NCBI GenBank assembly: GCA_029865605.1
Contig: JAOUGE010000003.1
Span: 21,797-85,796, forward strand
Length of the DNA stretch: 64,000 nucleotides
From: Candidatus Berkelbacteria bacterium
Lineage (GTDB): Bacteria; Patescibacteriota; UBA1384; DTJR01
Reading direction: 5' to 3'
In this document: piece after piece, positions 34,559 through 64,000 of the stretch
How positions within the stretch are numbered: position 1 is the stretch's first letter
Layout of the letters: every line of letters starts with the position of its first letter
Translations under genes and position numbers: made by a program
Notes under the pieces: model-generated
What the model saw: only the letters and a program-made list of their open reading frames with translations
What the model was told of the DNA's origin: nothing
Databases searched by the model: none

Positions 34559-34976
34559 TCAGAACGTCAGCCAGATTAAAACTCGGCCATACCTTCAGGT
34601 CAATATAATCAATAACGCACCCTCTGAAAACACGATCGAGCAAGTTCGACAGGGCGGCTCCCATAACTAGAGCAAGAGGTAAAATAGGGCCTTGCTTTTT
34701 GTTTTGCTTCCAAAAATAAAGAAGAGCCCCAAAAACCAAAAACAAAACCGATGAACTTAATAAAATCGAATCGAACCTCCCTGGGCTTAACCCGAACCCA
34801 ACGCCTGCGTTGCACAACACAAGGCTAGGTAATTTTTCAACAAAGATCAGCTTTGTTAGCTGATCGAGTAAAACTGCCAGTGAACTTATTACAAATAAAA
34901 TCGGGGCTTTACTTATCTTTTGCATGGGTCGCACAAGTAGTTGCAGCGGGATAAACCTTAAGGCGGCCAGCCTCAA
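34503..34976 (-). CDS. lspA: lipoprotein signal peptidase (signal peptidase II)
   Basis: 157 aa; NxGxxFGL, LGGALGNLxDR-like (MGAALSNLLDR) and FNLADxxI motifs; true start may be the internal Met (~34925). Confidence 0.8.
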   Translation of the reverse strand: MRLAALRFIPLQLLVRPMQKISKAPILFVISSLAVLLDQLTKLIFVEKLPSLVLCNAGVGFGLSPGRFDSILLSSSVLFLVFGALLYFWKQNKKQGPILPLALVMGAALSNLLDRVFRGCVIDYIDLKVWPSFNLADVLITFGLVWTVYALFSRTDS

Positions 34977-35235
34977 TAACCCCGCTACACTTCTTACAAA
35001 TTCCGTATTTTCCTTCTTCTATCCTCTCCAGTGCTTTCTTCAGCTCCTTCAACTCCTTCTCGGCTAACTTCGATAAAGAGAGACTTTCCTCAAAAGCTTC
35101 GAATTCTAAAGCGTTGTCTTCGTTAGTTGTTCCGAGATGCTTAAATTTACGATATTCTTTTACCTCCCCCTCCAACCTCTTAATATCGAATTTTATTGCC
35201 TTCTTAAGACTTTTTAAAAGTTTTTGGCTGATCAT
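34909..35235 (-). CDS. DksA/TraR-family C4 zinc-finger protein
   Basis: 108 aa; coiled-coil N-term, C-terminal CKKCSGVIEAGRLKVYPAATTCATHAKDK. Confidence 0.7.
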   Translation of the reverse strand: MISQKLLKSLKKAIKFDIKRLEGEVKEYRKFKHLGTTNEDNALEFEAFEESLSLSKLAEKELKELKKALERIEEGKYGICKKCSGVIEAGRLKVYPAATTCATHAKDK

Positions 35236-35526: not shown

Positions 35527-35590
35527 TTAATTATGAACAGGCGCCTCGATGTCGAGGCGCCTGGATTCGCTCGCAGCCATACTGTCGGGC

Positions 35591-35935
35591 TCATCCCTTA
35601 GCAGGGGCACTGCCCCTCATCGAGGGCTCCCGCGGCTCAATGAAGAACCGGATTGCGGTGCGTTCGGCAGCCCCGATTTGAACATCGACAAACGCCGGGT
35701 AACACCAGATGTCCAGCCCTCCAGGGGACAGATAGCCGCGCGCGATGGCGATCGCCTTGACCGCCTGGTTAAGCGCTCCCGCCCCGATGGTCTGAACCTC
35801 CGCCCGGCGGCTTTCCCTGATACAGCCGGCAATGGCCCCAGCCACCTTGTTAGGATCCGACTTGGCCCCAACCTTGAGAACACCATCTTCGAACACTACT
35901 TCCGGCCGTTTCTCCTTTGTTCCTCTGCGTGGCAT
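35591..35935 (-). CDS. SpoVS-family (Alba-like fold) protein; high-GC gene
   Basis: ORF 35591..35992; start probably ATG at 35935 preceded by AGGAGGTG; ...KVGAKSDPNKVAGAIAGCIRESRRAEVQTIGAGALNQAVKAIAIARGYLSPGGLDIWCYPAFVDVQIGAAERTAIRFFIEPR matches SpoVS almost end to end; ~60%+ GC vs ~40% flanks. Confidence 0.7.
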   Translation of the reverse strand: MPRRGTKEKRPEVVFEDGVLKVGAKSDPNKVAGAIAGCIRESRRAEVQTIGAGALNQAVKAIAIARGYLSPGGLDIWCYPAFVDVQIGAAERTAIRFFIEPREPSMRGSAPAKG

Positions 35936-36080
35936 CGTGTGCCACCTCCTGCTGACTGGTGTGTATGTTGCTGCAATCGTTGCTGCGAGCAAAAAAAGCT
36001 TATCATAAAAATATCAGTTTGTCATCGAAGCTACCATTTAAAATTATTTAGCTTTTGCTATAATCCTTTTTTAGAGGAAA

Positions 36081-36695
36081 ATGACTGAAGAAGAATTATT
36101 TACCCAAGAAAAGGAAACGCCGGAAGAAACTAAAAAGCGCAGTTTTTTAGTCAACTTATTCTTTGGTTTTATCGATTTTATTAAAACGGTTGCCTTAATC
36201 ATTATTATCGCTTTCGCCATCAGGGTTTTTGCCGTCCAGCCCTTCATTGTTGAGGGTCAGTCTATGGAGCCAATGTTTAAAAACAACGATTATCTGATTA
36301 CAGAAAAAATCTTATATCGGCTAAAAGACCCTGCTAGAGGCGATGTTGTTATTTTTCACCCTCCAGAAAATCCCTCTATAAACTATATCAAGAGAGTAAT
36401 CGGGCTGCCGGGAGATGTAATCGAAATCAAAGATGGTAAGGTTTTTGTTAACAGCCAAGCCTTGAGTGAATCCTATGTTGACTCTTCAACTCTGCTTAAT
36501 CTGAAGTCCCCGCAAGCGCCGATCACGCTAAAATCCGGAGAATATTACGTTTTAGGTGACAACCGAAATCACTCAAGAGATTCGCGCGAAATAGGCGCAA
36601 TTCCAAAACAAAACATAGTTTCAAGGATTTGGTTCAGACTGCTTCCGCCGTCAAGCATAAGGATCTTTGCCCGGGTCAACTACGACACACCCTAG
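36081..36695 (+). CDS. lepB: signal peptidase I
   Basis: 204 aa; N-terminal TM; catalytic GQSMEP (Ser) and IKRVIGLPGD (Lys) boxes, GDNRNHSxDSR box. Confidence 0.85.
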   Translation: MTEEELFTQEKETPEETKKRSFLVNLFFGFIDFIKTVALIIIIAFAIRVFAVQPFIVEGQSMEPMFKNNDYLITEKILYRLKDPARGDVVIFHPPENPSINYIKRVIGLPGDVIEIKDGKVFVNSQALSESYVDSSTLLNLKSPQAPITLKSGEYYVLGDNRNHSRDSREIGAIPKQNIVSRIWFRLLPPSSIRIFARVNYDTP

Positions 36696-42462: not shown

Positions 42463-42975
42463 ATGGCAAAAATCGTGATGGTTATTGCACCGGAGAACTT
42501 TCGTGACGAAGAGTACTTCAAGCCGAAGGAAATCCTTGAGTCAAATGGGCACGAGGTCATCACTGCCTCAAAAGAGATCAATCAAATCAGGGGCGTCGGG
42601 GGTGGAACAGCCAAAGCAACAGTCAAGGTGATGGATTTAAGCCCTTATGATTATGAGGCAATAGTTTTTATTGGCGGGCAGGGCATGCAAGAATTTACTA
42701 ATGATTCCGACCTTAAGGCAGCAGCTAAAAAATTCTACGATGCAAAAAAACTGACAGCAGCAATCTGCATCGCTCCAGCGATTCTGGCCAACGCCGGAAT
42801 CCTCTCCGGCAAAAAAGTAACTTCTACCCCGAGTGCTATCGAAGTCCTTAAAAAAGCCGGCTCTAATCACACCGGAAGTCTAGTCGAAGTCGATGGCCAA
42901 ATCATTACCGCCAGCGGCCCCGACGCCGCCGAAGAACTTGGTAACAAAATTGCCGAGATATTAAAACCCAAATAA
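42463..42975 (+). CDS. DJ-1/PfpI family protein (class I glutamine amidotransferase-like)
   Basis: 170 aa; nucleophile elbow AICIAPAILANAG; strong SD GAGGAGG. Confidence 0.8.
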   Translation: MAKIVMVIAPENFRDEEYFKPKEILESNGHEVITASKEINQIRGVGGGTAKATVKVMDLSPYDYEAIVFIGGQGMQEFTNDSDLKAAAKKFYDAKKLTAAICIAPAILANAGILSGKKVTSTPSAIEVLKKAGSNHTGSLVEVDGQIITASGPDAAEELGNKIAEILKPK

Positions 42976-42995
42976 GAACGCTTTTCTAAAAGTCT

Positions 42996-43029
42996 GGGGG
43001 TTGACAAGCATCGGTCTTGTAATTATCAT
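42996..43029 (+). promoter_or_regulatory. putative strong sigma70-type promoter (GGGGG-TTGACA, 17-nt spacer, TATCAT)
   Basis: GGGGGTTGACAagcatcggtcttgtaatTATCAT; predicted TSS ~43036-43039. Confidence 0.55.
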
Positions 43030-43038
43030 CATTACAAG

Positions 43039-43163
43039 ATGAGAAACCTCAAACACCACAAGAAGCTGCAAAAGAGATCTCTCATCCAAGAGGCCATCAC
43101 GGCCTCGTTTTTGTATCAGGGCCCTTAAGGGTCCCAAACGCTCCCTGAGAGGGAGGTGAATCG
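43039..43163 (+). promoter_or_regulatory. 5' leader: leaderless 29-codon uORF (43039..43128) containing a terminator-like hairpin, followed by two GC hairpins, the last overlapping the SD of the downstream gene
   Basis: ATG at predicted TSS; uORF MRNLKHHKKLQKRSLIQEAITASFLYQGP; GAGGCCatcacGGCCTCgttttt (43090..43112); GGGCCCttaaGGGTCC (43118..43134); CTCCCtgagaGGGAGgtg (43141..43158) then ATG 43164. Confidence 0.35.
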
Positions 43164-43808
43164 ATGGACCAGCGGGTCGAAGAAGCGCTTAGGGCGCTAG
43201 AAGACAGCCTCCGACTCCACCTGGATCATTACACCTCGAATGAGATCGCACTCATTCATAGAGCAATGCACACCGCTGTCACCTGGCAAGGCACACGCAC
43301 GCGTCTCTCGGGCACACCGGCCTGGGCCCACACGCTCGCAGTAGGCAACGACCTAATCGCGCTCGGCGCCGATGCCGACCCGATCGTCGCCGGTTACCAT
43401 CACGACGACTTGGAGGACCTCGGCAAAACAGCCGAAGATCTGTGCACACTCTATGGCCCCGAAGCCGCCGGGCTGGTGGTTGCCCTGACCAAGACTGTCG
43501 AGGACACCTATATCGCCCAGCTGATACGCGAGGGACATGTCAACTGGTGGGTGCTGCTGATTAAGGCCGTTGACCGGCGCCACAACATTCGAACAGTCGC
43601 CGGCTTCAAACTCAACAAGCAGGAAGAGTATGCCCACGAAACCCGAGCTCTGGTCGCCGTCCTGCGCATTGGCAGCATCTGGGTCCCCGCCGAGTGGCAA
43701 GAGCGCTACCACGGCATCCTCGACGAATCGCAAGGGCTTGCCCGACAAGTCCTCGCCTCGATCGAAGCCGGGCGCCGTACGAACCCCACCCTCCCCCTCC
43801 TGTTCTAG
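43164..43808 (+). CDS. small alarmone hydrolase-like HD protein (RelA/SpoT-type (p)ppGpp hydrolase domain only); high-GC gene
   Basis: 214 aa; RLSGTPAWAHTLAVG (RxSGxPYxxH), GYHHDDLEDLG (HDxxED), LVVALTK, LIKAVDRRHNIRTV (KLADRxHNMRT); no synthetase domain; ~60% GC. Confidence 0.75.
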   Translation: MDQRVEEALRALEDSLRLHLDHYTSNEIALIHRAMHTAVTWQGTRTRLSGTPAWAHTLAVGNDLIALGADADPIVAGYHHDDLEDLGKTAEDLCTLYGPEAAGLVVALTKTVEDTYIAQLIREGHVNWWVLLIKAVDRRHNIRTVAGFKLNKQEEYAHETRALVAVLRIGSIWVPAEWQERYHGILDESQGLARQVLASIEAGRRTNPTLPLLF

Positions 43809-43953
43809 GCCTCGCTGCAGTGCCAGAAGGCAAAAGCAGCGGGGCCTTCGCGATTTTTAAAACCAAGGGGGTTGACAAGAAAGCTTTTTTGTCTTAAACA
43901 AGACTGCTATAATTATTTTGCTATGTTAAGTAGCTTGAGAGGAGGTGATCAAA

Positions 43954-44175
43954 ATGGACGAAGAAAAAGACGAAACAACGGACGAAACAACAGAAGAAAA
44001 AGACGATAAAGAGCCCACTGGTGTAGTTGATACAGCAGCCGATACAGAGGAGGAACCTGCTGTAGGAGGCGGTGCTTCTTGGGGTTCGGGCGGTACTGAT
44101 GACGACGATGGGGATGACGAGGGCGATGAAGAAGAAAAACCAGCTGGCGAGGAAGAGAAGAAAGAAAAGGAATAA
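43954..44175 (+). CDS. hyper-acidic low-complexity small protein (73 aa, D/E/T-rich)
   Basis: GGAGGTG SD 6 nt before ATG 43954 (track lists GTG 43945); MDEEKDETTDETTEEKDD...DDDDGDDEGDEEEK...; followed by a canonical terminator. Confidence 0.5.
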   Translation: MDEEKDETTDETTEEKDDKEPTGVVDTAADTEEEPAVGGGASWGSGGTDDDDGDDEGDEEEKPAGEEEKKEKE

Positions 44176-61804: not shown

Positions 61805-63532
61805 ATGATCGCTCAAATATATTTAAAAAGAAAAACGAAACTCGATAAGCCGTTTGATTACGAGATTCCCCGCGGTATGAAAATCAAGAAATTCTCCCTG
61901 GTTGAAATAGAGTTGGGAACGAAAAAAACGATCGGCCTTGTCTGGGGCTTTAAAGATAGATCCCCCTATAATTTAAAAAAAATATCTAGGGTTTTATCTG
62001 CCGGTCCTGCCCTTACGCCAAATCAGTTAAAACTCGCGCATCTGATTTCCGATGAATACTTATCGACGTTAAGCGAGTCAATATTCTCTTTTCTCCCTAA
62101 ATTAAACATCCGCGACTTAAATAAAATAGGCTCAGAGGCCAAACACGCTAGGCGACAAAAACAAGAGAAAATGCTGCTAATCGCCGAGGCTTCCCAAAGA
62201 CTACTATTTTTTTGCCAGAAAATGCAGTTAGGCCAAAATCTAGCCGTGTTTCCTACAATCCACAGGGTTGAAGAAGCCTCCCGAGCCATAAAAAGATTAA
62301 ACCCTAAGCTTCAAGTTTACACCTGGCACAGCAAGCTTGAAAGCTACCAAAAAGCGAAAATCTGGCAAGATTTAATTTCAGATAAAAATAATATTGCTGT
62401 GATAGGAACAAGGCACTCATTATTACTCCCTTTTGTTTCGCTCAAGTCAGCCTATATTGATGAGCCAACCAGCTTTGCCTACCAAGAGGATCAAGCGCCA
62501 TATTACAACGCCTACAAAGTAGCCAGAACTCTTGCCGGCATATTTGGTGCTGATTTAATTATCGGTGAATCCTCCCCTGACATACTCTCGTTTGTTGCTC
62601 TGTCAAAAGGAGAGCTCAAGATAAAAGAAACCAAACCAGCGCTCGACTTTGAAATCCGTGACGGTTGGGAAAATTTCCTAAAAGATGCCCAAAACATAAA
62701 GAGTCTAAAGCCTAACTCAAAAATCTGCGTCATCGGCCCCTGGAAAAATCAGGCGAGGCTTCAATGTTCCGACTGCAAAAGCGAAATCACCTGCCCTAAC
62801 TGCCAAAACCCATTTTTTGAGGAGAACAGCTTTTCCTGCACTAAGTGCAAAAAAAATTATAAAAAAAGTCTTTGCTCAAAATGCGGGGGAGCAAATATTC
62901 AAAAAACCGGCTTTCTCTATTCTAAAATAATAAACGATCTAAAAGCGGTTTTCCCTCAAGCCTTAATTACGGCTAATCCAAAAGCATTTTCCAAATCTCA
63001 TATTGCCGTCACCTCAATCAATGAGCTGGACCGCCTCGATCCAATTTTCGAAACTGCCTTAATCCCCTACTTTATCGAGATGGCCAATTTCCCCTATCTA
63101 AACTTCAGAGAAAAATTATTCCAGAAAATCTGGGGGTTAAGTTCGGCCGGGGTAAAAAAAATCTACCTTTTCGGTGAAAGTCTAGGACAAGATCGTTTTA
63201 CTAGGCAGTTAACCACTAACAATTGGAAGGCGTTTTTAAAGGAAGAAATTGAAGAAAGAGCAAAGCTTAAGCTCCCCCCTTTTAGTAAGTCGGTCATGCT
63301 GGTAGTCAAGTGCCAAACGCCCGAAATTTGCGAAAAAATCAGCCGTGATGTGTTATCAAAAATTAAAATAACGGCCAACACCTATCCTTACGGTCAAGAC
63401 GCAAGAGCAGGAAAATTTACCCAAAAAACGCTATTGACCTTCCCCCACAAAGAGTGGCAAAAATACAAAGTTCTTTTGAAAAATACAAATCCCGATTTTC
63501 ACTTTGAGGTAGATCCGGTGGAATTTAGCTAG
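61805..63532 (+). CDS. priA: primosomal protein N' (PriA)-like with degenerate Walker A/B motifs
   Basis: 575 aa; PriA N-terminal 3' DNA-binding-like region, AVIGTRHSLLLPF and C-terminal Cys cluster (CSDCKSEITCPNC...CTKCKK...CSKCGG); no GxGKT/S P-loop; DEPTS replaces DEEHD. Confidence 0.7.
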   Translation: MIAQIYLKRKTKLDKPFDYEIPRGMKIKKFSLVEIELGTKKTIGLVWGFKDRSPYNLKKISRVLSAGPALTPNQLKLAHLISDEYLSTLSESIFSFLPKLNIRDLNKIGSEAKHARRQKQEKMLLIAEASQRLLFFCQKMQLGQNLAVFPTIHRVEEASRAIKRLNPKLQVYTWHSKLESYQKAKIWQDLISDKNNIAVIGTRHSLLLPFVSLKSAYIDEPTSFAYQEDQAPYYNAYKVARTLAGIFGADLIIGESSPDILSFVALSKGELKIKETKPALDFEIRDGWENFLKDAQNIKSLKPNSKICVIGPWKNQARLQCSDCKSEITCPNCQNPFFEENSFSCTKCKKNYKKSLCSKCGGANIQKTGFLYSKIINDLKAVFPQALITANPKAFSKSHIAVTSINELDRLDPIFETALIPYFIEMANFPYLNFREKLFQKIWGLSSAGVKKIYLFGESLGQDRFTRQLTTNNWKAFLKEEIEERAKLKLPPFSKSVMLVVKCQTPEICEKISRDVLSKIKITANTYPYGQDARAGKFTQKTLLTFPHKEWQKYKVLLKNTNPDFHFEVDPVEFS

Positions 63533-63538
63533 GTCGGG

Positions 63539-63573
63539 CGGGGCGGACACGCGCTTGCGCGCGTGCCGCCCCG
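63539..63573. terminator. 15-bp GC-rich hairpin between convergent genes (possible bidirectional terminator; no flanking T-run)
   Basis: CGGGGCGGACACGCGC-ttgc-GCGCGTGCCGCCCCG with one bulge. Confidence 0.4.
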
Positions 63574-63589
63574 TGTGCGAGCTGGCCCG

Positions 63590-64000
63590 CTAGGGCCGCT
63601 CGCGGATGACCACCTTCATCGACTCGGTCCACATGAGAGTGGGGTCCTTGATAGACCAGACGAGCGCGACCACATTGGCCGCGCCTCTGCCCTCGATCGT
63701 ATCGCCGACTACCCTGAGAGGCTCACCGGCATCGAGAACAAATCGAAAGCCTTCGGGAGCAGCAGTGAGCTTGGTCCGCTCACCGTCTGCCTCCTTCCGG
63801 TACCAATCCACCCAGACCTTCACAACCTGATCCGGGCGGGTGGCGTCATAGATCCGGAAGCTGCACCCGAAGACAGATGGGTGCAGAACACACGCCCGCG
63901 CCTCCGGAGTGACGGGAGTGCACATCTGCCCCTCGTTGAGGCGGACCTTGTCCCACCTCCCCGTCTTCTCCACTTCGAGGATCTCAGCGCCCGGGGGTTG
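63590..64000 (-). CDS. hypothetical protein, high-GC gene, 5' end beyond the window
   Basis: ORF 63590..63973 (127 aa from first Met); frame stays open to the window edge; ~65% GC; Ala/Arg/Gly/Val-rich; no recognisable motifs. Confidence 0.4.
   Translation of the reverse strand, partial: QPPGAEILEVEKTGRWDKVRLNEGQMCTPVTPEARACVLHPSVFGCSFRIYDATRPDQVVKVWVDWYRKEADGERTKLTAAPEGFRFVLDAGEPLRVVGDTIEGRGAANVVALVWSIKDPTLMWTESMKVVIRERP

What the first reader, a model, noticed from the sequence alone, without database searches (positions are those of the whole stretch)
43164..43808. Stand-alone SpoT-type (p)ppGpp hydrolase (SAH) of foreign composition under a strong native promoter
All four RSH hydrolase motifs are intact (RxSGxPxxxH, HDxxED, VTK-like, KxxDRxHNxRT) but there is no synthetase domain in the gene or the window. 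In other bacteria small alarmone hydrolases act as antitoxins to toxic alarmone synthetases, or degrade (p)ppGpp/(p)ppApp. A reduced symbiont carrying a high-GC SAH could be detoxifying alarmones, including host-derived ones. The gene has a dedicated consensus promoter and an elaborate leader (next finding).
Basis: partly seen in the sequence, partly recalled or inferred. Interest (0 to 1): 0.65.

Follow-up and report, generated by a model that had tools for sequence, protein, structure and literature searches.

The report
Stand-alone alarmone hydrolase in Berkelbacteria
This is an intact single-domain relative of the SpoT/Rel enzyme part that degrades the stress signal (p)ppGpp, in its own tightly controlled transcription unit in a Candidatus Berkelbacteria genome. 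It has been at this locus for a long time rather than being a recent import, and its persistently G+C-rich composition is unexplained.

Summary
ORF 43164..43808 (+) encodes 214 aa with a RelA/SpoT-type HD hydrolase domain. All six catalytic HD motifs are intact and there is no synthetase domain. GC is 61.6% against 42.5% for the window. A near-consensus promoter precedes it.

The "foreign" reading does not hold. Orthologues occupy the same syntenic slot in relatives whose flanking genes are saturated at synonymous sites. They are also GC-rich and carry the same leader and terminator. The gene is therefore an old resident, under purifying selection (dN/dS about 0.2), with one recombination tract visible.

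It belongs to a sparse family of about 200-230 aa stand-alone HD proteins. These resemble the hydrolase domain of long Rel/SpoT more than any solved small alarmone hydrolase.

No synthetase or toxSAS partner lies next to it in any of nine loci, so a toxin-antitoxin role is unsupported. Whether the genome has a Rel elsewhere could not be tested; other CPR lineages do.

Every family member has a conserved leader with no Rfam match: a 5'-terminal AUG and short uORF, a covarying helix, an intrinsic terminator and a masked ribosome-binding site.

Verdict: a new member of a known enzyme kind, with two unexplained extras, the attenuator and the persistent GC excess.

The parts
42996..43029 (+). Promoter: G-run plus -35 TTGACA (43001-43006), 17-nt spacer, -10 TATCAT (43024-43029). 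An imperfect 12-nt palindrome, TCTTGTAATTAT/ATCATTACAAGA (43016-43039), overlaps the -10 and the predicted start site.
   Evidence: Consensus scan gives 11 of 12 matches. GGGGTTGACA recurs in the window. The same palindrome is reported in L002 (I7). Promoter activity was not tested.
43039..43128 (+). Leader uORF of 29 codons (MRNLKHHKKLQKRSLIQEAITASFLYQGP). Its AUG lies 9 nt after the -10 hexamer, so it would be at or within about 2 nt of the 5' end of the transcript. The uORF reads through the leader terminator.
   Evidence: An AUG lies 30-32 nt after the -35 hexamer in six loci measured, and the same layout is read by eye in L004, L007 and L068. The uORF is 16-33 codons. Its stop lies 2-7 nt before the terminator or just after it. 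The peptide sequence is not conserved. Translation is inferred.
43039..43085 (+). Leader helix P1: 5' arm AUGAGA (43039-43044) pairs with UCUCAU (43080-43085). It encloses a 35-nt A/C-rich loop carrying CAAACAC (43050-43056).
   Evidence: Helices of different sequence occupy the same place in 7 lineages: UGACGAGA/UCUCGUCA, AUGAUUGC/GCAAUCAT, CACAUUCGAA/UUCGAAUGUG, GGAUAUGGC/GCUAUAUCC, GGUGGC/GCCACC. Each beats shuffles at P 0.0006-0.02, Fisher combined P = 3.6e-10. The helix appears in the MFE fold of 4 of 6 leaders, but not in the window's own.
43090..43112 (+). Intrinsic-terminator-like hairpin inside the leader (GAGGCC-AUCAC-GGCCUC) followed by a U5 run. This is the candidate attenuator.
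   Evidence: Terminator scan. A hairpin plus U-run of different sequence is present at the same place in all family loci. No Rfam family matches.
43141..43156 (+). Hairpin CUCCCU-GAG-AGGGAG, which pairs the ribosome-binding site GGAGG (43152-43156) of the hydrolase gene.
   Evidence: Present in the MFE or centroid folds of the window, L003, L009 and L011 leaders. The sequence CGCTCCYTGARAGGRGG is conserved.
43164..43808 (+). Gene for a 214-aa stand-alone RelA/SpoT-type HD hydrolase. HD1 is R47, HD2 is H56, HD3 is H80-D81, HD4 is E84-D85, HD5 is D137-R138 and HD6 is N141.
   Evidence: AlphaFold2 model with pLDDT 93.6. Best structural matches are the Rel/SpoT hydrolase domains. dN/dS is about 0.2.
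43809..43858 (+). Terminator-like hairpin(s) and a T-run ending the hydrolase transcription unit.
   Evidence: 43839-43851 plus TTTTT. A 10-bp stem, 43809-43818 with 43836-43845, is read directly. Equivalent strong hairpins follow the gene in L009, L011, L012 and L068.
43868..44175 (+). A second GGGGTTGACA box, then the gene for a 73-aa very acidic protein (43954-44175). It follows the hydrolase gene in all GC-rich members of the family. A functional link is unknown.
   Evidence: No Pfam, PADLOC or PHROG match.

Best explanation
The gene encodes an active, monofunctional, metal-dependent 3'-pyrophosphohydrolase of the RelA/SpoT (RSH) hydrolase-domain family. Its most likely substrates are (p)ppGpp and related 3'-pyrophosphorylated nucleotides, which it would cleave to GDP/GTP plus pyrophosphate.

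It is a long-standing, vertically inherited gene of a Berkelbacteria-related CPR lineage, not a recent import. It forms its own transcription unit. A strong sigma-70-type promoter is followed by an attenuator: a 5'-terminal AUG with a short uORF, a helix that can sequester that AUG, and an intrinsic terminator that a ribosome finishing the uORF would cover. Further damping would come from a ribosome-binding site held in a hairpin and from codons that are rare for this genome.

The inferred logic is that hydrolase synthesis is kept low and rises when leader translation is efficient, so alarmone removal is coupled to translational capacity.

Shown here: domain identity, intact catalytic residues, fold, purifying selection, synteny, conservation and covariation of the leader, and absence of an adjacent synthetase.

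Inferred: the substrate, enzymatic activity, transcription start, uORF translation and direction of regulation.
For: Identity:
- Pfam HD_4 is above its cut-off.
- Best solved relatives are the hydrolase domains of M. tuberculosis and M. smegmatis Rel (E 1e-16 and 2e-15), T. thermophilus Rel and RelSeq.
- The AlphaFold2 model has pLDDT 93.6. The 50 best Foldseek PDB matches listed are all RSH proteins: Rel/SpoT hydrolase domains, SAHs and RelA. The best TM-score is 0.75-0.76, to full-length SpoT.

Catalytic residues:
- All six HD motifs as defined in PMC9293644 map to R47, H56, H80/D81, E84/D85, D137/R138 and N141. S46 and T151 of RelSeq map to S49 and T144.
- R47, H56, H80, D81, E84, K134, D137 and N141 are invariant across a 17-member family alignment.

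Selection:
- dN/dS is 0.18-0.22 between three lineages.
- Catalytic residues are retained inside a recombined tract.

Residency:
- The order PD-(D/E)XK nuclease, then HD, then small proteins, then RNase HII is shared with L009 within a run of about 20 shared genes. Flank protein identity there is 40-73% and dS is saturated. The order is also shared with L068.
- The best non-self relative of the window protein is the syntenic P0005.
- dS for HD between the window and L003 (1.2) is similar to that of the flanking genes (1.4-1.8).

Regulation:
- Promoter, leader terminator and hairpin over the ribosome-binding site.
- P1 helix with different sequences in 7 lineages, combined P = 3.6e-10.
- Fixed distance from the -35 hexamer to the AUG, and a fixed relation between the uORF stop and the terminator.
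- Codon adaptation is 0.672 against 0.771 +/- 0.031 for other window ORFs.

Circumstantial: a DksA/YteA-like protein is encoded at 34912-35235 (-). Other CPR lineages carry HD+SYNTH Rel proteins, so (p)ppGpp signalling exists in the radiation.
Against: - No enzymatic data exist for any member of this family.
- Two substrate-contact positions differ from RelSeq: K45 becomes L48 and Y50 becomes A53, with W54 next to it. The alpha6-alpha7 loop region is about 10-12 residues shorter. The substrate could therefore differ.
- No (p)ppGpp synthetase was found in the 64-kb window, and the rest of the genome could not be examined.
- The transcription start is inferred from promoter geometry only.
- The P1 helix is not in the MFE fold of the window's own leader.
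- The uORF peptide is not conserved, and changes between close relatives are non-synonymous.
- No anti-terminator helix was identified.
- The persistent GC-rich composition is not explained by this account.
Confidence: 0.6

Rival explanations
1. Recent horizontal acquisition. The gene would be the N-terminal hydrolase fragment of a long Rel from a high-GC donor such as an actinobacterium, possibly the symbiont's host, captured under a native promoter.
For: GC is 61.6% against 42.5%, with codon positions 1 and 3 both shifted and FYMINK residues halved. The best solved relatives are mycobacterial Rel. An actinobacterial Rel fragment, P0006, is 37% identical to the window protein. The HD1 loop, S49 and T144 are of the long-RSH type.
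Against: - Orthologues with the same leader, terminator and neighbours occupy the same slot in genomes whose flanks are saturated at synonymous sites, and they are GC-rich too. A single transfer old enough for this would have ameliorated.
- The best non-self hit is the syntenic P0005, not an actinobacterial protein.
- Family members with native GC share the same leader.
- The C-terminal helices and the (Y/W)(I/V)P motif are shared across the stand-alone family.
Confidence: 0.08
2. The protein is an antidote to toxic small alarmone synthetases (toxSAS). It would act either as a type IV antitoxin or as protection against toxSAS delivered by phages or competitors, degrading (pp)pApp or (p)ppGpp or removing 3'-pyrophosphate from tRNA.
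For: Stand-alone hydrolases neutralise all tested toxSAS, and phages carry them (PMC7229694). There are weak matches to phage families phrog_990 and phrog_15275.
Against: - No synthetase-domain ORF lies next to the gene in any of nine loci or anywhere in the window.
- There is no PADLOC match.
- Phage relatives are at most 33% identical.
- The gene has a stable chromosomal position among housekeeping genes.
Confidence: 0.1
3. The fold is the same but the substrate differs. Candidates are an NADPH or 3'-phosphonucleotide phosphatase like metazoan Mesh1, a (p)ppApp-specific hydrolase, or a salvage enzyme for modified nucleotides imported from the host by an organism that cannot make its own nucleotides.
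For: K45 to L48 and Y50 to A53/W54 lie in the base and phosphate contact loop, and the alpha6-alpha7 loop is shortened. No synthetase is in the window. Mesh1 and (p)ppApp hydrolases share the fold.
Against: HD1 Arg, HD6 Asn, and the equivalents of S46 and T151 that position the guanine base in RelSeq are all kept. The family is closer to the (p)ppGpp-hydrolysing domains of Rel/SpoT than to Mesh1 (E 6e-3) or to the Bacteroides (p)ppApp hydrolase.
Confidence: 0.17
4. The leader is a small ligand- or protein-binding RNA switch (P1 helix plus A/C-rich loop with an AAACAC motif) and not a translated uORF. The 5' AUG is conserved only as part of the helix.
For: The AAACAC motif falls in two different reading frames relative to the AUG. 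The peptide is not conserved. P1 covaries.
Against: - There is no Rfam match.
- The loop is short and predicted to be unstructured.
- The AUG is always at the predicted 5' end.
- The uORF stop always lies where a ribosome would cover the terminator.
Confidence: 0.3

Closest known systems
Hydrolase (HD) domain of long bifunctional RSH enzymes: RelSeq (1vj7), T. thermophilus Rel (6s2t/6s2u), M. tuberculosis Rel (5xnx), A. baumannii SpoT (7qpr)
   Same: - Best sequence matches (E 1e-16 to 6e-10) and best structural matches (TM 0.65-0.76).
- All six HD motifs are shared.
- Eight residues separate the HD1 Arg from the HD2 His, with no insertion.
- The Ser and Thr that hold the HD1 Arg (S46 and T151 of RelSeq) are kept.
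- The two long C-terminal helices align with the helices that follow the HD domain in Rel.
   Different: - The polypeptide ends after 214 residues, with no synthetase, TGS or ACT domains. TIGR00691 scores 64.5 bits against a cut-off of 499.
- About 10-12 residues are missing from the alpha6-alpha7 region. In T. thermophilus Rel that region carries the loop that blocks the hydrolase site in the synthetase-ON state (PMC9293644).
- K45 is replaced by Leu and Y50 by Ala.
Small alarmone hydrolases (SAH): RelH of C. glutamicum (7qoc), Leptospira SAH (7qoe), P. aeruginosa SAH (6yvc), Lmo0812 (4yf1), Mesh1 (3nqw, 5vxa)
   Same: Single-domain RSH hydrolase of about 180-215 residues with the same fold (TM 0.52-0.66 normalised to the query), the same catalytic motifs and a stand-alone gene.
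   Different: - Sequence similarity is weak (E 3e-5 to 0.4).
- It lacks the insertion after HD1 that the paper describes for bacterial SAHs.
- It is longer at the C-terminus.
- It belongs to a separate cluster of stand-alone HD proteins, whose members P0005, P0010, P0084, P0153, P0045 and P0017 are each other's best hits.
- Assignment to one of the 11 named SAH subfamilies could not be tested.
ATfaRel (PbcSpo SAH), the type IV antitoxin of the FaRel toxSAS (PMC7229694)
   Same: A stand-alone alarmone hydrolase that could in principle neutralise any toxSAS product.
   Different: ATfaRel is encoded in a two-gene module with its toxin. Here no synthetase gene is adjacent in any locus, and the gene sits in a conserved housekeeping neighbourhood.
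Leader-peptide transcription attenuators in which a ribosome reaching the end of the leader ORF prevents terminator formation. The E. coli pyrBI leader is the textbook case; this comparison rests on my own knowledge and was not tested here.
   Same: A short ORF upstream of, or overlapping, an intrinsic terminator that precedes the regulated gene. The stop codon is placed so that a terminating ribosome would cover the 5' arm of the terminator.
   Different: - The uORF would be leaderless, with its AUG at the transcript's 5' end, and the AUG is part of a covarying helix.
- No run of regulatory codons or nucleotide-sensing pause sites was recognised.
- The regulated gene is an alarmone hydrolase.
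- No experimental support exists.

Membership tests
RSH superfamily hydrolase domain (Pfam HD_4, PF13328) | Profile match above the curated threshold | tested here: met
   43.8 bits against a cut-off of 27.2, E = 2.8e-11.
RSH superfamily hydrolase domain | HD1 Arg, which stacks on the base (R44 of RelSeq) | tested here: met
   R47. It is invariant in the family alignments. Motif definition from PMC9293644.
RSH superfamily hydrolase domain | Metal ligands: HD2 His, HD3 His-Asp and the HD5 Asp (with Arg/Lys) | tested here: met
   H56, H80-D81 and D137-R138.
RSH superfamily hydrolase domain | HD4 Glu-Asp pair (nucleophile activation) and HD6 Asn | tested here: met
   E84-D85 and N141. D85 is Glu or another residue in a few distant family members.
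RSH superfamily hydrolase domain | All-helical HD fold superposable on solved Rel, SpoT and SAH structures | tested here: met
   Model pLDDT is 93.6. The 50 best Foldseek PDB matches listed are all RSH proteins, with TM up to 0.76.
RSH superfamily hydrolase domain | Mn2+-dependent hydrolysis of (p)ppGpp to GDP/GTP plus PPi | not testable with these tools
   Requires an enzyme assay.
Small alarmone hydrolase (SAH: single-domain RSH) | Only the HD domain in the polypeptide, with no SYNTH, TGS or ACT | tested here: met
   214 aa followed by a stop codon and a terminator. The synthetase HMM gives no hit. Length is conserved at 203-233 aa in orthologues.
Small alarmone hydrolase (SAH) | A functional gene and not a decaying fragment of a long RSH | tested here: met
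   dN/dS is 0.18-0.22. The gene is intact in all nine loci. It has its own promoter, leader and terminator, conserved across loci.
Small alarmone hydrolase (SAH) | Membership of one of the 11 named SAH subfamilies (Mesh1, Mesh1-L, PbcSpo, PbcSpo2, PaSpo, RickSpo, ...; PMC7229694) | not testable with these tools
   The subfamily HMMs are not available here. Solved SAHs are only distantly similar (E 3e-5 to 0.4).
Small alarmone hydrolase (SAH) | Residue insertion directly after HD1, reported for bacterial SAHs (PMC9293644) | tested here: not met
   R47 and H56 are separated by 8 residues, exactly as R44 and H53 in RelSeq. This is a descriptive feature of the solved SAHs, not a formal criterion.
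toxSAS / SAH type IV toxin-antitoxin module | An adjacent gene for a small alarmone synthetase | tested here: not met
   There is no SYNTH-domain ORF in the window or in 11 related loci. The neighbours are DJ-1/PfpI or a PD-(D/E)XK nuclease and a small acidic protein.
Long RSH (Rel/SpoT/RelA) | HD plus SYNTH (plus TGS/ACT) in one polypeptide | tested here: not met
   TIGR00691 scores 64.5 bits against a cut-off of 499.2, and only model positions 1-144 match.
Any Rfam cis-regulatory family, including the ppGpp riboswitch (for the leader) | Covariance-model match at or near the gathering score | tested here: not met
   There is no match at the gathering threshold in the window. For 42960-43200 there are only chance-level hits, all on the wrong strand, at E <= 10.

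The most novel reading that the evidence does not exclude
The unit as a whole may be an undescribed device in which synthesis of an alarmone hydrolase is gated by translation of a leaderless uORF. The unit consists of a strong promoter, a leaderless uORF within a covarying helix, an intrinsic terminator, a masked ribosome-binding site and a GC-rich, rare-codon hydrolase gene. Under this reading, ribosome availability would directly set the rate of (p)ppGpp removal in ultra-small CPR bacteria. The gene's GC-rich composition would be actively maintained, either by selection on expression or by GC-biased gene conversion at a recombination hot spot, and would not be inherited from a donor. A bolder variant is that this lineage has lost Rel altogether and uses the hydrolase on alarmones or modified nucleotides taken from its host.
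Probability: 0.25. Interest if true: 0.7.

Novelty: new member of a known kind. Interest (0 to 1): 0.45.

Why it matters
Stand-alone alarmone hydrolases are known, but full-text searches found no paper connecting them with CPR/Patescibacteria. How organisms with minimal regulatory repertoires control (p)ppGpp is also poorly known.

This locus offers three things:
1. A compact hydrolase that looks like the Rel/SpoT hydrolase domain without its synthetase-coupled regulatory loop. That makes it useful for comparing regulated and unregulated hydrolase sites.
2. A conserved candidate attenuator with no Rfam match, dedicated to an alarmone hydrolase. It can be tested directly with reporter fusions.
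3. A clean natural example of a gene that stays 11-19 GC points (gene-wide; 20-32 points at third codon positions) above its genome across lineages with saturated synonymous divergence. This warns against reading GC anomalies as recent transfer, and it can be used to test for GC-biased gene conversion or selection on composition in bacteria.

Tried and rejected
- Rfam search of the window at gathering threshold and of the leader at E <= 10 found no relevant family.
- The first AlphaFold2 run, with a 3-sequence alignment, was poor (pLDDT 59). It was repeated with 61 sequences.
- The search for related loci with the close clade found nothing in GTDB representative genomes and only a near-duplicate of L003 in JGI metagenomes (L008).
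- The second genome scan, with the P0005 clade, was swamped by long RSHs. It was useful only for showing Rel in other CPR lineages and for yielding L068.
- The last large protein search, with a CPR Rel profile, listed many Patescibacteria Rel proteins but none labelled Berkelbacteria. Whether this genome has a Rel stays open.
- RNAalifold on a MAFFT alignment of nine leaders predicted no structure, because the arms are not in register. It was replaced by a per-sequence helix test against shuffles.
- The idea that the 13-nt GGGGGTTGACAAG copies flanking the gene are a target-site duplication was rejected. The box is a recurrent promoter element in the window, and the upstream copy is absent in L003.
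- The idea that the gene is the positional remnant of Rel was rejected. CPR Rel loci share no synteny with the window.
- PADLOC gave no hit for the hydrolase, and phage genomes hold no close relative.
- The afdb50 fold library was unavailable.
- Literature searches linking small alarmone hydrolases or ppGpp with CPR/Patescibacteria found nothing relevant.
Full report
OBSERVATION

The ORF is at the stated coordinates: 43164..43808 (+), ATG start, 214 aa. A GGAGG ribosome-binding site precedes it. The region is so GC-rich that long ORFs occur by chance in several frames on both strands. Three results identify the + frame as the coding one:
- a Pfam HD_4 match above threshold (43.8 against 27.2 bits, E = 2.8e-11);
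- a partial TIGR00691 spoT_relA match that covers only model positions 1-144 of 687;
- purifying selection between orthologues (dN/dS 0.18-0.22).

The gene is 61.6% GC with GC3 73%. The 70 window ORFs average 42.5% (sd 5.2). A TTGACA-17-TATCAT promoter match (11 of 12) lies at 43001-43029, and a terminator-like hairpin lies in the leader at 43090-43106. GGGGTTGACA occurs five times exactly in the window, including next to the RNA polymerase and ribosomal-protein gene blocks, so it is a native promoter box. The window is from a Candidatus Berkelbacteria MAG, a member of the CPR radiation.

WHAT THE PROTEIN IS

By sequence, the best solved relatives are the hydrolase domains of long RSH enzymes:
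- M. tuberculosis and M. smegmatis Rel, E 1e-16 and 2e-15;
- T. thermophilus Rel, 9e-12;
- RelSeq, 6e-10.

Solved small alarmone hydrolases follow far behind: Lmo0812 at 3e-5, RelH of C. glutamicum at 5e-4, Mesh1 at 6e-3 and P. aeruginosa SAH at 0.4.

An AlphaFold2 model built on a 61-sequence alignment is confident (pLDDT 93.6). Its 50 best listed Foldseek matches in the PDB are all RSH proteins. Rel and SpoT come first (TM up to 0.76), then the SAHs.

I then aligned it with the window protein. Bisiak et al. (PMC9293644) define six HD motifs, and all six are present:

| Motif | RelSeq | Window protein |
|---|---|---|
| HD1 | R44 | R47 |
| HD2 | H53 | H56 |
| HD3 | H77-D78 | H80-D81 |
| HD4 | E81-D82 | E84-D85 |
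| HD5 | D144-R145 | D137-R138 |
| HD6 | N148 | N141 |

S46 and T151, which hold the HD1 arginine in RelSeq, are also kept (S49 and T144). The HD1-HD2 spacing is that of long RSHs, without the insertion described for bacterial SAHs.

There are three differences. K45 becomes Leu48. Y50 becomes Ala53, followed by Trp54. About 10-12 residues are missing from the alpha6-alpha7 region, which in T. thermophilus Rel carries the loop that blocks the hydrolase site when the synthetase is active. The protein therefore looks like a Rel/SpoT hydrolase domain, plus the helices that follow it, standing alone without the synthetase-coupled switch.

FAMILY

The lineage is rare. Among 5.8 billion clustered proteins only two close relatives appear, P0002 at 84% and P0003 at 64% identity. 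One further metagenomic copy is almost identical to P0003.

An exhaustive profile search of 1.84 billion representatives found only two clusters below E = 1e-30. After those came a plateau around 1e-17 that mixes long RSHs with proteins of 200-230 aa. Those short proteins share the N-terminal helix, all catalytic residues and a C-terminal helical hairpin with a (Y/W)(I/V)P motif. In all-against-all BLAST they are each other's best hits, not long RSHs. The best non-self hit of the window clade is P0005.

NOT A RECENT IMPORT

P0005 lies on a 125-kb contig (L009) that is collinear with the window over about twenty genes. The shared order runs from UvrA through IF3-L35-L20, signal peptidase and a GTPase to the PD-(D/E)XK nuclease. 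Then comes the HD gene, followed by small proteins, RNase HII, glycosyltransferases and GyrB. Flank proteins are 40-73% identical. Their synonymous sites are saturated: NG86 dS is undefined and third-position difference is 0.61-0.63.

The HD protein is only 28-30% identical between these two genomes. It sits in the same slot and is again GC-rich: 54.7% with GC3 65%, against a flank GC3 of about 33%.

The same holds in other loci:
- L011: 55% GC, GC3 71%.
- L012: 48% GC, GC3 53%, against flanks of 34-40% GC.
- L068: 52.6% GC, GC3 61%, against 41.9% overall. This MAG is labelled Saccharibacteria but is syntenic with the window.

Between the window and L003, dS of the HD gene (1.2) is similar to that of its neighbours (1.4-1.8), as expected for co-inheritance.

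One ancient transfer cannot explain a GC3 excess of 20-32 points on both sides of a saturated divergence, and a recent transfer is excluded by the synteny. The excess affects codon positions 1 and 3, and FYMINK residues are halved. The gene's codon adaptation relative to the other window ORFs is 3 sd below the mean. Two more distant family members, L004/P0153 and L007/P0045, have native GC.

I could not decide among three explanations:
- GC-biased gene conversion;
- selection on composition or expression;
- serial replacement by other GC-rich alleles.

Recombination does occur at the locus. Between the window and L002 the flanking genes and both ends of the HD gene differ by dS 0.07-0.20. Codons 62-152 differ by dS 1.4 and dN 0.25, yet every catalytic residue is retained.

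CONTEXT AND THE TOXIN-ANTITOXIN IDEA

In nine loci the upstream neighbour is DJ-1/PfpI, a PD-(D/E)XK Cas4-like nuclease, or a DinB-type polymerase in L003. The downstream neighbour in all GC-rich members is a very acidic protein of about 70 aa with its own promoter.

A synthetase-domain HMM built from 31 long RSHs hits nothing in the six-frame translation of the window or of 11 related loci. The same HMM hits 147 control proteins. It may miss very divergent toxSAS, but no unassigned neighbouring ORF is a candidate. PADLOC has no match for the hydrolase, and phage relatives are at most 33% identical. A two-gene toxSAS/SAH module of the kind described in PMC7229694 is therefore not supported.

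Whether the genome has a Rel elsewhere could not be tested. Other CPR lineages clearly have HD+SYNTH(+TGS) Rel proteins of 480-590 aa: Falkowbacteria, Ryanbacteria, Nomurabacteria, Nealsonbacteria, Veblenbacteria, Paceibacterota and Saccharibacteria. Those loci are not syntenic with the window. A DksA/YteA-like protein is encoded 8 kb upstream. This is circumstantial support for alarmone-responsive transcription.

THE LEADER

All family loci share the same layout, including the two with native GC:
- TTGACA, a 17-nt spacer and a -10 hexamer.
- Seven to nine nucleotides later, an AUG. Its distance from the -35 hexamer is 30-32 nt in the six loci measured.
- A helix (P1) whose 5' arm contains or abuts that AUG and whose 3' arm lies 28-45 nt downstream.
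- An A/C-rich loop, usually containing (A/C)AAACAC.
- A GC-rich hairpin followed by a U-run.
- A hairpin that pairs the ribosome-binding site of the hydrolase gene.

The P1 arms differ completely between lineages: AUGAGA/UCUCAU, UGACGAGA/UCUCGUCA, AUGAUUGC/GCAAUCAU, CACAUUCGAA/UUCGAAUGUG, GGAUAUGGC/GCUAUAUCC and GGUGGC/GCCACC. Each beats shuffled controls, and the combined P for seven lineages is 3.6e-10.

The AUG opens a uORF of 16-33 codons. Its stop lies 2-7 nt before the 5' arm of the terminator, or just beyond the terminator. In either case a ribosome completing the uORF would cover the terminator.

My preferred reading is a translation-dependent attenuator on a leaderless uORF. Leader translation would give read-through. 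Sequestration of the AUG in P1, or early stalling, would give termination.

Several points weaken this reading. The start site is inferred only from promoter geometry. The peptide is not conserved. The AAACAC motif falls in two reading frames. P1 is absent from the MFE fold of the window's own leader. No anti-terminator helix was found. A small RNA switch remains a serious alternative. Rfam has no match.

COMPARISON WITH WHAT IS KNOWN, AND VERDICT

The protein works like, and by all sequence and fold criteria is, an RSH-family hydrolase with single-domain (SAH) architecture. Its active-site loop is of the long-RSH type. It belongs to a cluster that I could not place among the 11 named SAH subfamilies.

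SAH-only organisms are rare but known (PMC3153485). No paper in the searched library links SAHs with CPR.

I rate the gene a new member of a known kind. The enzyme itself is ordinary. The surprises are the dedicated conserved attenuator and the persistent GC-rich composition at a syntenic locus.

Noticed in passing
window 63530-64000: A second high-GC island begins directly after the native gene 61805..63532. An ORF on the minus strand (63590..63973, open beyond the window end) has 62.5% GC and GC3 77%. It has the lowest codon adaptation in the window and no Pfam or PHROG match. The window ends in ...CCCGGGGGTTG, which may be another GGGGTTGACA box.
   Followed up: partly
L002 1511-1613 and 2487-2590: Two MITE-like elements of about 103 nt have perfect 15-nt terminal inverted repeats (ACCCCCTTACTAAAC / GTTTAGTAAGGGGGT). 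They sit in opposite orientation inside the two GGGGGTTGAC promoter boxes that bracket the hydrolase unit in the 84% relative. They are absent from the window. This suggests an element that targets this promoter box.
   Followed up: partly
window 43954-44175 (+) and the equivalent genes in L002, L003, L009, L011, L012 and L068: A very acidic Asp/Glu-rich protein of about 70 aa, with a central VGGG-x-SWG motif in the window clade and its own promoter, follows the hydrolase gene in every GC-rich family member. It has no family match.
   Followed up: partly
window 43319-43612 (codons 52-150 of the hydrolase gene) compared with L002: There is a recombination mosaic. Flanks and gene ends differ by dS 0.07-0.20, but the central tract differs by dS 1.4 and dN 0.25. 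The L002 tract comes from an unsampled third allele.
   Followed up: yes
window 34912-35235 (-): A 108-aa DksA/YteA-family-like zinc-finger protein is encoded here. NCBIfam DksA_like gives E = 3.6e-15 and yteA gives 5.3e-17, both below the curated cut-offs. Pfam zf-dskA_traR gives E = 0.003. DksA-family proteins are the RNA polymerase partners of ppGpp in some bacteria.
   Followed up: partly
window 35594-35935 (-): The SpoVS gene, next to tRNA-Val, is also GC-rich (about 55%). My first ORF pick on the opposite strand (35549..36088 +) was wrong.
   Followed up: partly
window 43016-43039: An imperfect 12-nt palindrome, TCTTGTAATTAT / ATCATTACAAGA, spans the -10 hexamer and the predicted transcription start of the hydrolase unit. 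It could be an operator for a repressor. It is identical in L002 (I7) and weaker in L003.
   Followed up: no
protein P0004 (400 aa): After the clade's own cluster, the best hit of the exhaustive profile search (E = 8e-31) is a protein made of two tandem HD hydrolase domains, from a low-GC-looking organism. Its context was not examined.
   Followed up: no
L003 1299-2522: In the 64% relative, a Y-family (DinB/IMS) polymerase gene of native GC lies between DJ-1/PfpI and the hydrolase unit. It is absent from the window and from L002.
   Followed up: no
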